From NCBI RefSeq assembly GCF_006345805.1, contig NC_043014.1:40238001-40302000 (forward strand): a stretch of DNA of 64,000 bases, in the 5' to 3' direction. The stretch is from Octopus sinensis. Taxonomy: Eukaryota. Below, piece after piece: positions 39,912-45,305 of the stretch (its first letter is position 1; each line of letters opens with the position of its first letter). The notes under the pieces were generated by a model. That model made no database searches. It was not told the origin of the DNA and was given only the letters and a program-made list of their open reading frames with translations. The position numbers and the translations under genes were made by a program.

Positions 39912-41210
39912 GTATGCACCCCAGTTTTTATTCTTATGGGATATGGAAATCTTATAGGCAGTTCATAGATTATACAGCTATGGCTTAGTGGTAATAAGTT
40001 TGCTATCAAACTACATGGTTTCAGATCCGGTTCCACTATGTGACTCCTTGGACAAATACCTTCTACTAAAGCCTGGTGGGGGGCAATCAAAGCCTTGTGA
40101 AGGGATTGGATTTAGTAGATGAAAACCGAAAGAAGCATGTTGTCTGTTTGTGTATATATGTATTTCTTTATTACCCACAAGGGGTTAAACATAGAGCGGA
40201 CAAACAAGGACAGACAAAGGGATTAAGTCGATTACATCGACCCCAGTGCGTAACTGGTACTTAATTTATCGACCCCGATAGGAGGAAAGGCAAAGTCGAC
40301 CTCGGTGGAATTTGAACTCAGAACGTAACGGCAGATGAAATACGGCTACGCATTTCGCCCGGCGTGCTAACGTTTCTGCCAGCTCGCCATATATACACAG
40401 GCATGCAGGAAGTAAATAGAAACCTTTAATTTTCAAAATCTTTTATTTGATATTAATTGGTTTAAGGAAAAGTTTTCTTCTAGCTGCTCGTCCATAATAC
40501 CTAAGCTATGTATAAATAATATTTGTGTATGTATGTTTGTCTGTCCCCTTTCCTTGACACCATGTGATTGTTATAAAGGGATGTCATTCATTAGCAATAT
40601 TCCGTGAAAACATGTCTGGCAATACGGATATAGTACCTTCCTTGGAATCATGTGAGCGTTGGCAATATATATATATATATATAATTATAATTGAGGGAAT
40701 ATAAATCCAAACTTACAGGGAAAAAAAATTCAATTTAGAAATACTAAATCAAATTTCACACGATATAATATATATATATATAAAAAAATAGAAAAAAACC
40801 CACCTTTTATCAATTCAAAATGAACAATTAAATTACACCATCCAGAAAATTACATATATTAGAAATATTAAAATTAAAATAACAAGAAAATTTCAATAAA
40901 GTTTCAATAAAATTTCAATGATTATTTAAATCCTTCATATTTTTCTGGGTTCATAGGATTAGGATTATGCTCAAGGTGGTTATAATCCTATAGCTGAGAG
41001 AATAATTGATGGTTTGATAACTAAGATCAACGAAATGAATTTGACCACTAAGATGTGTTAAGTAACATGTGCTTAACAGAACACACACATATGGCCTTAA
41101 GATTAAATGAAATAATGGTTCCAATGAAAATGGGAATAATGGGACAAAAATAAAAACTATAATAAATCTTTGCAAACAGGTCTTCCTTTCATCATAAACT
41201 GGTGATTACC

Positions 41211-41253
41211 GTACGTTGACAAGAGGCAAATACCTCGAAACTGCAGTCCGTAC
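41211..41253 (+). ncRNA. Type-I hammerhead ribozyme, U3-A8 core
   Basis: GUACG-UUGACAA-GAGG-caaaua-CCUC-GAAAC-UGCA-GUC-CGUAC; all stems perfect, palindromic stem III. Confidence 0.8.
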
Positions 41254-41495
41254 GTATCGCTTAGGTTTACGAGAGAGAGATGACCTCCCTTTGCAAATAC
41301 CATAAGAGCACAGAAAGTGTGCCTAAAGCCAGCTGGAGACGATGATCTCCTGGGGCTAAAAGCTACAGTAACACCCACCCTTTGTGGTTAGCCATATTGA
41401 GATGGCTAGTATACTTTACGTTAATAAAAGCTATGTTAATAAGCAAATAAATTTACATCCTTTTACAATTTTGTATGTTAAATATCATTTGACAG

Positions 41496-41659
41496 GTGCC
41501 CAAGATAGTCTTGGAGAAAAGGTGACATTGCAACATTTCAAACCAATGAGCAGTTTGCAAACATTCACAGCTTCTGGGTATGTGGCTATTGCAAATAGTG
41601 GTGAAGCATTGGAAGAAATTGAAAACATCATTAAAATTTGGATAAAGCAAGTTGAACAG
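41496..41659 (+). CDS. DNAH5: DNAH5-like exon (G)AQDSLGEKVTL...IKIWIKQVEQ
   Basis: tgacag| and CAG|gtgtgt, 164 nt (phase 1 to 0); WIKQxEQ motif. Confidence 0.93.
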
Positions 41660-42430
41660 GTGTGTTTCATTCTATGAAAAATAATGCTGTTGTTGTGTTC
41701 ATTATGTGAGCTAGGCTTTGAAAATATTATCATTATAAGCTCTTTCATAGTGTTACTTATAAATAAAAGTTACACCTGAAAGTAAAAGACAATTTTATAT
41801 AATCGTTTACACTGATGACATGGTTTGCGAATAATTCAAAGTCATACATTTCAAAAATCATCCCTTCTGCTATTACTACCTCCACCATCATCATTGCTTT
41901 CACCATCACTACTGCTATTAGATACAATGGTAGGAGAGACAGCCACTGTTATCGTCGTCATCATCATCATCATCATCATCATCATTATTGTCATTGTTGT
42001 CGTCATCGTCATCACCACCACCACCACCACCACCATCACCACCACCATCATCATCACCTTCATCATCATTCTTACAATCATATTACTACCATTATATTTG
42101 ATGTCAATTTTTCTAAACAATCTCTCCTTTTTTAAACAGTCTAGAACCATTAGAGATCTCTTCTAAACATTTCCTCAACTATACCCAGTGCAGCAGGCGT
42201 TTTCGTTACAAACTAAGAAATATTTAATACCCAAGCAACTCTTAAATATATATATATATATGTTTGTTCCTCCTTGAGCCATGCCTGGCTCACAAGGGCT
42301 GGTTTCCCAGTTTCCTTGGCTTATAGGTTCCCCATCTGTCAGTTTTTCGAAATCAGTGGCAGACGCCACTAGAAAAACTCTTATATATTTACAAGGAAGC
42401 CTTCACTTTCGTCGCATCCTGGTGGTTACC

Positions 42431-42471
42431 GCCCGTTGACAAGGGACAAAAATCCCGAAACTAATCCGAGC
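42431..42471 (+). ncRNA. Degenerate U3-A8 hammerhead, paralog of 41211
   Basis: GCCCG-UUGACAA-GGGA-caaaaa-UCCC-GAAAC-UA-AUC-CGAGC; stems covary with the 41211 copy. Confidence 0.6.
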
Positions 42472-45305
42472 GTATCACTCAGGCTTGCGAGGAAGGGATG
42501 GCCTCCCTTTGCAAATACTTCAAGGGCACTGATATGGTGTCTAAAGCCAGCTAGAGACGACGATCTCTTGGGGCTATAAAGCTACAGTAACACCCCCTCC
42601 CCTATGTGGTTAGCCATGATAAGATGGCTTCTATACTTTACATTATCGAGCGATTACTGTTTCAATCTCATTCTGAGATTTAATTATGCCTATATATATA
42701 TATATATTTGAAAAAAGAAAAAGTATGACTTCACTGGCAGTTCTAATCAGTTTAATTTATTAGTTTTTCCGTTTTTAATAATATAAATTTTAGTTCATAT
42801 ATATATATATATATATGCATAACTGGTACTTATTTAATCAACCTCAAAAGGATGAAAGGAAAAGTCGACCCTGTTGGAATTTGAACTCAGAATGAAATAC
42901 CACTAAGCATTTCACCTAGCGTACTAACAATACTCCAGGCTTGCCCCTTTTTCCTCTTAACAAATAACAGCCTTCACTCAACATCCATGTGAATACCTTT
43001 TCAATTAGTTTCTGCTTAGTATAATGTTCTCTTTCAAAACCACAATTTTTTCTAAACAGCCTCTCTTTTTCTAAACAATCTGTCCTTTTCTAAACAGTCT
43101 AGAGCTCTTCTAAATATTTCCTCAGCTACACTCAGTACAAAAAGCATTTTCTGTAAAACTAAAAAAATATTTTATCCCTAAGTAACTCTTAAGTATATAC
43201 CATACAATATATTGGTTTCAAATTTTGGCACAAAGCCAGCAGTTTCAGAGAAATTTCTTAGAAGGAGAACAGGTGATTATATGAACCCCAATTCATGACA
43301 GATATTTCATTTGATTAACCCTGTAGGGATAAAAGGTAAAACGACCCAATTGGGATTTGAACTCAGACTGAAAAAAGATTCAGAACAAATATCATAAAGT
43401 CATTTGATGTTCTAATAATTTGGACAACCCACCATGCTACCCTTATTAAATAATAAATTATGACTAATCTATGGTTTAATCTTGTACGCGTAACTCATTT
43501 TGGCCAACGGCTTTTATTTTCAGTAATTGAATATTCAGCAGAAAAAGTAATGTCAAAACATGCTGCTTATCAATTATTTTTCTTTAACAATCACACAACC
43601 TCTCTGTTTTCCTGTTGTCTAATTCCTGAACTCTTAGTGATATATTTCCTGTTGTACATCTTTCACGAGGTTCACAAATTATATCCTGTTTCCATAACAT
43701 TTAAACTACAAACTTACATTGTCTTACAGGAAATAAACGTATACTAATTTAAATTGACTATTTACTGATTAGAATCCTGGTTAGCATAATTTATTACCAA
43801 CATAATTTATTATCAACATTGGAGAACATTGCCTTCTCAATATATTCAATACTCCTCACTCGATACAGTCAATGAGGAGGGGAACCCCTTCGGTCATGAA
43901 TGACAATGGGATTGCACTTAGAAAGTTACCCTCCGAGGCACAAGTCCGGGCAAGGTTGTTTTATGGAAGACCAGCAGTCGTCCATGCATACCAGCCTCCC
44001 CTCTCCACACCACTGATGTTATCCAGGGGAAAGGCAAAGGCCAATACAGCTTGGCACCAGTGATGTCGCAACTCATTTCTACAGCTGAGTGAACTGGAGC
44101 AACGTGAAATAAAGTGTCTTGCTCAAGAACAGAACACGCAACCCGGTCCGGGAATCGAACTCACAACCTCACAATCGTAAGCTCGATGCTCTACCCTCTG
44201 AGCCATGTGCCTTCACTTACAGTTCAATACAATTTATAATTCAACACTGCAGTGGCACAGAAGCAATTGTAATAAAAATTAAAGTTCAGCTAAATTCATT
44301 CTCTAACTTCTTGTTTTATATTTTACATTTTTATCTTTTATCTTTTACTTGCTTCAGTCATTAGACAAGGGGTTGGCAAATCAGGGTCAATTACCCCAAG
44401 TGGGGTAACAAAAATAAGTAAAATTATATAAGAAATGTGTTCCTTGTTACATCATGCCATTTTGAACTACAAACAATTTGGTTGCTATGGTGTTGTCAAG
44501 TGACTAAACAGATATTATTTGTCAATTATTTCTTTGGCTTAGTGGTTATGGTGTCAGCATCATGATCGTAAGATTGTGGTTTCAATTCCTGGACTGGGCG
44601 ACACGCTGTGTTCTTGAGCAAAACACTTCATTTCACATTGCTCCAGTTCACTCAGCTGGCAAAAATGAGTAACGTTGCGATGGACTGGTGTCCCGTCCAG
44701 ATGGGGACACATACGCCATAGAGACCGGGAAACTGGGCCCATGAGCCTGGTTAGGCTTTAAAAAGGGCACATTTGGTAGACGGAAACTGAAAGAAGCCCA
44801 TCCTATATATATATATATTTGTGTGTGTTTTTGTGTGTCTGTGTTTGTTCCCCCAACATCGCTTGACAACTGATGCTGGTGTGTTTACGTCCCCGTAACT
44901 TAGCGGTTCGGCAAAAGAGACCAATAGTATAAGTACTGGACTTACAAAGAATAAGTCCTGGGGATCGATTTCCTCAACTAAAGGCGGGGCTCCAGCATGG
45001 CCGCAGTCAAATGACTGAAACAAGTAAAAGAGTAAAAGAGTAATCAATCACACAACCATGCCTAGAAGAAATTACTTGTGAAATTGTATTATTGATAAGT
45101 CAAACATCAGACTAGATAATTTACAATAGTTATTTTTCTTTATCCATGTTACATGTTCATTTGATACTCCTATCTACTTAAGCAATTTAACCATTTATAA
45201 ATCTAGGGCCATTAAAGTATGCACTTGGGATTAATCTAGTCAATTATATTTCTACTTTACAAAATTGGACTTGTTTCTGTTTTAAAGAAGAAATCCCTGT
45301 TTCAG

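What the first reader, a model, noticed from the sequence alone, without database searches (positions are those of the whole stretch)
41190..42645. U3-A8 hammerhead heading a conserved, covarying structured module of about 230 nt (two diverged copies)
Seen: copies at about 41190-41425 and 42415-42645 both start with a UUGACAA-core HHR whose stems covary (stem II GAGG/CCUC versus GGGA/UCCC; stem I GUACG/CGUAC versus GCCCG/CGAGC). A shared non-coding tail follows with further hairpins (GCAC..GUGC/GUGU followed by CUAAAGCC, GAGA..UCUC, AGCCAU..AUGGCU). Both are sense to the dynein pre-mRNA and bracket exon 41496-41659; the first copy ends about 70 nt before the acceptor. Inference: a retrozyme-like RNA, possibly with a second structured domain.
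Basis: partly seen in the sequence, partly recalled or inferred. Interest (0 to 1): 0.75.

Follow-up and report, generated by a model that had tools for sequence, protein, structure and literature searches.

The report
Self-cutting mobile RNA repeat (retrozyme) copies
These are two of thousands of scattered copies of a ~355-base non-coding repeat that carries a hammerhead ribozyme motif (predicted to cut its own RNA), keeps the same predicted fold across many diverged subfamilies, and was likely pasted around the genome by Penelope-like retrotransposon enzymes; it is a new animal family of a known kind of element and likely not a device that regulates the dynein exon.

Summary
Both copies belong to a dispersed, non-coding repeat with a 349-364 bp unit: 5,273 exact hits to one hairpin motif and 4,134 hammerhead-core hits genome-wide. 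Copy 1 (41162-41422) is 5'-truncated, between a 12-bp target duplication. Copy 2 (42336-42689) is a full unit of another subfamily with a mutated stem III. Copies show Penelope-like (PLE) insertion marks: two fixed 3' ends about 46 nt apart (the 'tail'), variable 5' ends, inverted arms, head-to-tail tandems, AT/(TA)n targets. Long-ORF Neptune-type PLEs occur in the genome, but no partner was identified. The whole unit folds alike across 18 lineages. A tree-aware test supports 6 of 74 pairs, two of them downstream of the ribozyme, including a long-range helix that encloses the first 3' end. U3-A8 is a known variant and covers only 26% of cores; U3-G8 wobble (22%) and U4C are fixed in young subfamilies. 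[quoted passage not shown] Bracketing of the dynein exon is best explained as chance. Cleavage and circular RNA are untested.

The parts
41149..41160 (+). Left target-site duplication of copy 1 (AATAAAAACTAT)
   Evidence: 11 of 12 identical to 41423-41434; 77 of 234 family loci show such >=9-nt duplications vs 5 of 234 controls
41162..41422 (+). Copy 1: 5'-truncated, tail-less copy of subfamily A (unit about 48-306), 95% identical to the subfamily consensus
41169..41301 (+).
   Evidence: predicted fold; compensatory changes between subfamilies
41202..41260 (+). Type I hammerhead, U3-A8 core, palindromic stem III CUGCAG; predicted cut after C41248
   Evidence: sequence; core intact vs subfamily; cleavage not tested
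41306..41357 (+). Hairpins H1 (GCACA/UGUGC) and H2 (AGCC..GGAGA/UCUCC..GGCU)
   Evidence: one H2 pair significant in the tree-aware test (E=0.039; canonical in 13 of 18 lineages); no H1 pair significant
41365..41422 (+). 5' arm of long-range helix P3 (41365-72; its partner lies in the tail, absent from this copy), hairpin H4 (41390-41407), and primary 3' end of the family (41422)
41423..41434 (+). Right target-site duplication of copy 1 (AATAAAAGCTAT)
41496..41659 (+). Host exon, axonemal dynein heavy chain (DNAH5-like); context, not part of the element
   Evidence: E=2.5e-4; downstream exons DHC_N1
42336..42689 (+). Copy 2: one full unit of subfamily B including the tail, 95% identical to the subfamily consensus, followed by (TA)n
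42340..42377 (+). 5' hairpin (UUUUUC..AGUGGC/GCCACU..GAAAAA)
   Evidence: no pair significant
42422..42480 (+). Type I hammerhead of copy 2, U3-A8, stem III damaged by G42464A; predicted cut after C42466 if still active
   Evidence: Rfam HH9 E=2.3e-4; other copies read G at 42464
42584..42660 (+). Long-range helix P3 (42584-91 with 42653-60) enclosing H4 and the primary 3' end (about 42644-46)
   Evidence: A-U/G-C pair canonical in 16 of 16 lineages, E=0.005
42647..42689 (+). Optional ~46-nt PLE-type tail with hairpin H5, ending at the second fixed 3' end

Best explanation
The two modules are separate insertions of a non-coding, ~355-bp hammerhead repeat family (a non-LTR retrozyme) that is likely mobilised in trans by a Penelope-like retrotransposon's reverse transcriptase/GIY-YIG endonuclease. 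Shown: thousands of dispersed copies, many subfamilies, head-to-tail units, two fixed 3' ends, variable 5' ends, inverted arms, target duplications at AT-rich or (TA)n sites, no conserved ORF, a shared predicted fold. Inferred: multimeric transcripts are cut by the hammerhead, with the palindromic stem III pairing between two copies. Monomers would be circularised, as shown for coral, mussel and axolotl retrozymes. The PLE protein would bind the structured 3' part (H1-H2-P3-H4-H5), nick AT-rich DNA and start reverse transcription internally at two sites: inside the P3 multiloop and at the tail end. It would run through the intact or re-ligated cut site and sometimes round the head-to-tail junction. 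The dynein-intron copies are likely passengers: copy 1 is intact but solitary, copy 2 is decaying.
For: Copy number 5,273 and 4,134, controls 0 and 20. Unit periods 353, 357 and 364 bp in tandems. In a position-ordered sample, 41 of 44 segments end at the primary end (18) or at the tail/model end (23, which includes read-through into the next unit), 12 of 26 loci hold both orientations, 22 of 44 segments start upstream of the cut site and 1 of 44 within 5 nt of it. Target duplications in 77 of 234 loci vs 5 of 234. These match the PLE marks in PMC8557442 and the two internal RT starts that define the tail in PMC11167929. Neptune-type RT+GIY-YIG frames of 775-883 aa exist in the genome and also end at (TA)n. 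Stem III is a perfect palindrome in 24 of 30 loci (10 different sequences) and a G-U palindrome in 4 more (the pattern fixes only the outer C-G; some loci are two arms of one insertion). Fold: 31 compensatory vs 10.6 expected and 54 broken vs 98; a 57%-identical subfamily folds to the same order of helices.
Against: No autonomous PLE shares the unit's sequence. Only 150 of 5,029 GIY-YIG candidates were scored, and the Neptune 3' ends seen carry short AT-rich hammerheads and about a 28-nt tail, not this 3' domain. No RNA evidence for cleavage or circles. Covariation is under-powered: none of the proposed pairs is significant in the all-pairs test, and H1, H4, H5 and the 5' hairpin have no significant pair. 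Subfamily B's reverse complement folds better than its sense strand. U3-G8 (924 cores) and U4C lineages are as young as U3-A8 ones, which could mean that cleavage is dispensable.
Confidence: 0.8

Rival explanations
1. The copies are 5'-truncated pseudo-LTR ends of an autonomous PLE that was not found, not an independent non-autonomous element.
For: All insertion marks are PLE-like; solitary pLTR hammerheads are common (PMC4209133); only 150 of 5,029 GIY-YIG candidates were scored; in L255 a subfamily-M copy abuts a Neptune 3' end.
Against: Where copies extend 5', they continue into their own tail (head-to-tail) in every subfamily examined. Of 240 family-derived loci, 16 have PLE-protein fragments nearby; those inspected (L198, L093/L109, L255) are adjacent insertions, not a shared 5' body, and no shared long 5' flank was seen among the first 30 loci.
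Confidence: 0.1
2. The element moves by the PLE machinery from uncleaved tandem transcripts; the hammerhead is a largely idle or protein-assisted passenger and no circle is needed.
For: In PAc, ribozyme mutants did not affect insertion in vitro and no reads ended at the cut site (PMC11167929); 8 of 9 Xenopus dimers did not cleave (bioRxiv 2026.07.22.740005); U3-G8 and U4C cores are fixed in young subfamilies; there is no pile-up of 5' ends at the cut site.
Against: The core G5, A6, A9, GAAA and NUH, the stems and the palindrome are kept across lineages down to 44% identity; position 3-8 stays Y-R paired (W-C or wobble) in 17 of 18 lineages. This rival differs from the best explanation only in the role of cleavage.
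Confidence: 0.3
3. The pair is an exapted cis-regulatory device that cuts the dynein pre-mRNA on both sides of the exon.
For: Both copies are sense to the gene and 1.22 kb apart; copy 1 has an intact core and ends 72 nt before the acceptor.
Against: Both are about 5% from their subfamily consensus, like other copies; copy 2 has a damaged stem III; their stem III segments cannot pair with each other (-0.8 vs -12.5 kcal/mol for the copy 1 homodimer); about 13 such neighbours are expected by chance; a contig from a related organism joins 42217 to 43348, omitting copy 2 (run X17, record 17).
Confidence: 0.03
4. A tRNA-derived SINE that happens to carry a hammerhead.
For: Similar size and copy number; hammerhead-bearing SINE-like repeats are described in schistosomes (PMC6765202, passages).
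Against: No tRNA by ARAGORN or Rfam; a T5 run near the unit start; no poly(A) tail; tail, tandem and inverted structures are PLE-type.
Confidence: 0.03

Closest known systems
Metazoan non-LTR retrozymes (Cervera & de la Pena 2020, PMC7229834; mussel 350-390 bp, axolotl 331/353 bp, coral 225-245 bp)
   Same: Type I hammerhead in a 350-365 bp head-to-tail unit, GC 43-46%, no LTR or conserved ORF, long target duplications, thousands of copies, compact predicted fold.
   Different: Mostly dispersed partial, monomer or inverted copies (up to three consecutive units seen) rather than long arrays; circles and cleavage untested; U3-A8, U3-G8 and U4C cores; two fixed 3' ends. I saw no mention of octopus or cephalopods in that paper's main text; sequence similarity to the published retrozymes was not tested.
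Penelope-like elements: pLTR, tail and inverted structures (Craig et al. 2021 PMC8557442; PAc, Frangieh et al. 2024 PMC11167929)
   Same: Optional tail between two fixed 3' ends, 5' truncation, inverted arms, tandem units, AT-rich or microsatellite targets, hammerhead upstream of the 3' ends.
   Different: No ORF; the tail is about 46 nt (about 55 in subfamilies M and N) vs 30-40; in PAc the RT start sites lie inside the ORF, here inside a non-coding structured domain.
PLE minimal hammerheads including the U3-A8 variant (Cervera & de la Pena 2014 PMC4209133; Perreault et al. 2011 PMC3088659)
   Same: U3-A8 core covariation; short palindromic stem III suited to dimers.
   Different: Here the ribozyme has a canonical 6-bp stem I and 4-bp stem II on a long rod, and C3-G8, U3-G8 and U3-A8 all occur within one family.
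Xenopus retrozymes as non-autonomous PLE derivatives (Li, Clavereau, Pollet, bioRxiv 10.64898/2026.07.22.740005)
   Same: Same proposed relationship to PLEs.
   Different: That link rests on pLTR homology and co-occurrence; here no homologous pLTR was found, but the insertion anatomy is PLE-type.

Membership tests
Type I hammerhead ribozyme | Core YUGANRA/GAAA/NUH with stems I and II, ends in stem I | tested here: met
   copy 1 intact, copy 2 with a damaged stem III
Type I hammerhead ribozyme | Self-cleavage after the NUH triplet | not testable with these tools
   only contigs available
Non-LTR retrozyme | 150-450 bp head-to-tail unit with one type I hammerhead per unit | tested here: met
   periods 353-364 bp; dimers and trimers
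Non-LTR retrozyme | Non-coding, GC below 50%, no LTR organisation | tested here: met
   GC 0.43-0.46; longest ATG frames 34-92 aa and different between subfamilies; PBS/PPT not searched
Non-LTR retrozyme | Target duplications longer than 4 bp | tested here: met
   12 bp at copy 1; 77 of 234 vs 5 of 234
Non-LTR retrozyme | Expressed as monomeric circular RNA | not testable with these tools
   no run on record as RNA; contigs cannot show circles
PLE-mobilised non-autonomous element | Two fixed 3' ends (optional tail), 5' truncation, inverted arms, AT/(TA)n targets | tested here: met
PLE-mobilised non-autonomous element | Shared 3'/pLTR sequence with an autonomous partner | tested here: inconclusive
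   none among the Neptune families fetched; only 150 of 5,029 candidates scored
Autonomous PLE | RT + GIY-YIG ORF between pLTRs | tested here: not met
tRNA-derived SINE | tRNA-like head with Pol III boxes | tested here: not met
   T5 run at unit start

The most novel reading that the evidence does not exclude
The region downstream of the hammerhead is a portable, ORF-free recognition and initiation element for Penelope-like reverse transcriptase: a conserved fold whose long-range helix P3 positions two RT start sites. The family is also a natural series of ribozyme cores (C3-G8, U3-G8, U3-A8, U4C) in recently amplifying lineages. Together they would make the open questions 'which RNA feature does a PLE RT recognise' and 'is hammerhead cleavage or circularisation needed for retrozyme mobility' directly testable with a 355-nt RNA.
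Probability: 0.45. Interest if true: 0.68.

Novelty: new member of a known kind. Interest (0 to 1): 0.42.

Why it matters
Retrozyme mobilisation by PLEs has been argued from co-occurrence and pLTR homology. This family carries the PLE insertion signature itself and keeps a defined 3' RNA fold round the start sites across lineages down to 44% identity. That gives a compact candidate substrate for PLE reverse transcriptase and a natural panel of hammerhead core variants. For the dynein locus itself it matters little.

Tried and rejected
Rfam at gathering score: nothing. The 18-mer count of 4,546 was rejected as a copy number, because 21 of 29 sampled loci were another repeat carrying a 62-nt fragment. 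Partner search: no homology of the unit to the Neptune 3' ends fetched; apparent adjacencies at L198, L093 and L255 looked like neighbouring or nested insertions. Pfam PF26215 was not in the library. Expression: no RNA holder listed on record; guessed-RNA contigs hold family sequence but also every other repeat, so they are not evidence either way. The all-pairs covariation test gave nothing significant, and its top pairs look phylogenetic. My first clustering had subfamily D in the wrong orientation and was redone. For the 18-lineage test, 44 clusters were reduced to 18: 21 old C-type clusters were collapsed into one, 5 A-like clusters were dropped, and foreign 5' parts of two rows were masked; four rows were left out when the profile was built. 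Earlier scan notes: none found. Lunse et al. 2017 and Przybilski & Hammann 2007 could not be read. They and unread supplements of PMC7229834 and PMC4209133 may already list cephalopod hammerheads or U3-G8 activity. Repbase and Dfam could not be searched.
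Full report
Observation. The two modules are present as described: 78% identical over 277 bp, and no third copy lies in the window. Each has a type I hammerhead layout with a UUGACAA core. Rfam finds nothing at gathering score; in E-value mode copy 2 matches Hammerhead_HH9 (E=2.3e-4). The exon between them matches DNAH5 and the next two exons are DHC_N1 on the + strand, so both copies are intronic and sense.

It is a repeat. The window lies in a 2.72-Gb genome (size and repeats suggest an octopus, from recall, not tested). 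Copy 1 drew 2,688 candidates, and the best 40 scored were 94-97% identical apart from itself. Copy 2 drew 1,840, the best 40 at 92-98%. A 15-base motif at the foot of hairpin H2 occurs 5,273 times (control 0), and a hammerhead-core pattern 4,134 times (control 20; not every hit was verified as a family member, and U4C cores are missed). Tandems give unit lengths of 353 (A), 357 (B) and 364 bp (M); consensus units are 349-358 bp for A-D. Copy 1 is unit ~48-306 of subfamily A between an 11/12 duplication. Copy 2 is a whole subfamily-B unit ending in (TA)n. Each is 95% identical to its consensus.

Insertion anatomy. Copies end at one of two fixed points about 46 nt apart (about 55 nt in M and N). 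In the first 30 motif hits on contig C1 (26 loci with 44 segments after removing overlapping loci), 18 segments end at the first point, 23 at the tail/model end and 3 elsewhere. Twelve loci hold both orientations. 5' starts are scattered: 22 lie upstream of the cut site and 1 within 5 nt of it. Target duplications of 9 nt or more occur at 77 of 234 loci vs 5 of 234 controls, and 97 of 173 ends are TA-rich (a sample biased to long copies). Craig et al. (PMC8557442, passages read) list tandem and inverted arrangements, an optional 30-40 bp tail and microsatellite bias as PLE features. Frangieh et al. (PMC11167929, parts 1-2 of 4 read) show that the tail is the interval between two internal RT start sites and that the target is AT-rich. 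The genome has Neptune-type elements with long open RT-GIY-YIG frames (775-883 aa; the clade name rests on the CxxxxCxxC linker and my recall). Two of these families carry their own short U3-A8 hammerheads near the 3' end. None shares sequence with the unit, so the partner is unidentified. Single junctions with Neptune 3' ends (L255, L240) are hints only.

Structure. The unit folds into a 5' hairpin, a long rod carrying the hammerhead, hairpins H1 and H2, a multiloop closed by an 8-bp helix P3 (enclosing H4 and the first 3' end, its 3' arm in the tail), and H5. With the fold predicted from subfamily A alone, the other three consensuses show 31 compensatory and 54 broken pairs, against 10.6 (maximum 21 in 3,000) and 98 (minimum 74) under site shuffling. 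The other three references behave alike (this null ignores rate variation and shared branches). On 26 real copies, 93% of cells pair and 19 of 75 pairs have double changes, against 3-7 for slid controls. A tree-aware G-test on 18 lineages (mean identity 65%, minimum 44%) gives E<0.05 for 6 of 74 proposed pairs: one in stem I, two in stem II (one canonical in only 10 of 18), one in the stem III palindrome, one in H2 (13 of 18) and one in P3 (16 of 16, E=0.005). Nothing passes the all-pairs test. Subfamily M, 57% identical to A, folds independently into the same order of helices; 70 of A's 113 pairs lie within 2 nt of an M pair (no null computed). So a second structured domain is supported for H2 and P3; H1, H4 and H5 rest on conservation and folding only.

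Ribozyme. Stem III is a self-complementary 4- or 6-mer in 24 of 30 sampled loci (10 different palindromes), and a G-U palindrome in 4. This is the dimer signature described in PMC4209133 (parts 1-2 of 4 read) and PMC6765202 (passages). U3-A8 is a known natural variant (PMC4209133; PMC3088659, passages). Here it accounts for 1,066 of 4,134 cores, U3-G8 for 924 and C3 for the remaining 2,144. Sampled U3-G8 (B) and U4C (M; 26 of 26 cores) copies are 95-96% identical to each other, as young as the rest (samples biased to near copies). Whether these cores cut is unknown. U4C is reported to lower activity in vitro (PMC3088659); my one search for C3U/G8A/wobble listed a single paper, seen as a listing only.

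Mechanism. Shown: dispersal, PLE-type ends, tandem units, no conserved ORF, conserved fold. Inferred: transcription of multimers, hammerhead processing, circles as in coral, mussel and axolotl retrozymes (PMC7229834; passages, discussion and first part of results read), and internal priming by a PLE RT at the two ends. Half of the sampled copies cross the cut site intact, so the template was uncleaved or re-ligated; the data cannot separate these. PAc ribozyme mutants still inserted in vitro (PMC11167929), and 8 of 9 Xenopus dimers did not cleave (bioRxiv 2026.07.22.740005, parts 1-3 of 5 read), so cleavage may be dispensable.

The dynein exon. The two copies are of different subfamilies, their stem III segments do not pair with each other, copy 2 has lost C15.2-G16.2, and about 13 such close pairs are expected by chance. 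One contig from another organism (run X17) joins 42217 to 43348 and so lacks the block holding copy 2; it begins 26 nt inside copy 1, a weak hint that copy 1 is shared. Exaptation is unlikely.

Novelty. Searches for octopus + hammerhead ribozyme, octopus + Penelope + non-autonomous and retrozyme + cephalopod listed no paper on this family; the library is partial, and repeat databases and supplements were not seen. The kind of element is known, so this is a new member. Its added value is the direct PLE insertion signature, a mapped 3' fold round the start sites, and the core-variant series. Interest 0.42.

Noticed in passing
L159, L161, L162 and 18 more loci (matches window 41358-41419 and 42578-42646): A ~430-bp high-copy repeat ending in a short hairpin plus CTAG (Helitron/Helentron-like, label recalled) carries a captured retrozyme insertion: an inverted tail fragment plus the 62-nt 3' end, between a 10-bp duplication. 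It has amplified this passenger to perhaps 3,000 copies (21 of 29 sampled of 4,546).
   Followed up: partly
L092, L097 (3' ends) and L198:1080-1130: Autonomous Neptune-type PLE families in this genome also use U3-A8 minimal hammerheads with palindromic CATG or CCGG stem III, 45-90 nt from their 3' ends.
   Followed up: partly
L250-L268 (subfamily M): A young subfamily (about 95% identity, 364-bp unit) has U4C fixed in the hammerhead core (26 of 26 cores).
   Followed up: partly
window 40759-40885 (minus strand): 79% match to DNA just downstream of a Neptune ORF in L103; probably a PLE 3'-end fragment 275 bp upstream of copy 1.
   Followed up: no
L255:1848 and L240:1316-1322: Retrozyme copies abut the 3' ends of Neptune elements (same sense in L255, end-to-end in L240): shared target preference or template switching.
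   Followed up: partly
unit positions about 45-55 (window about 42379-42390): A TATA-like AT run about 80 nt upstream of the cut site is present in most subfamilies; it could be an internal Pol II promoter.
   Followed up: no
window about 42100-42245 and 43050-43200: A diverged local duplication flanks the block holding copy 2; a related organism lacks 42218-43347.
   Followed up: no
window 42262-42335: Fragment of another high-copy repeat directly 5' of copy 2, itself preceded by (TA)n.
   Followed up: no
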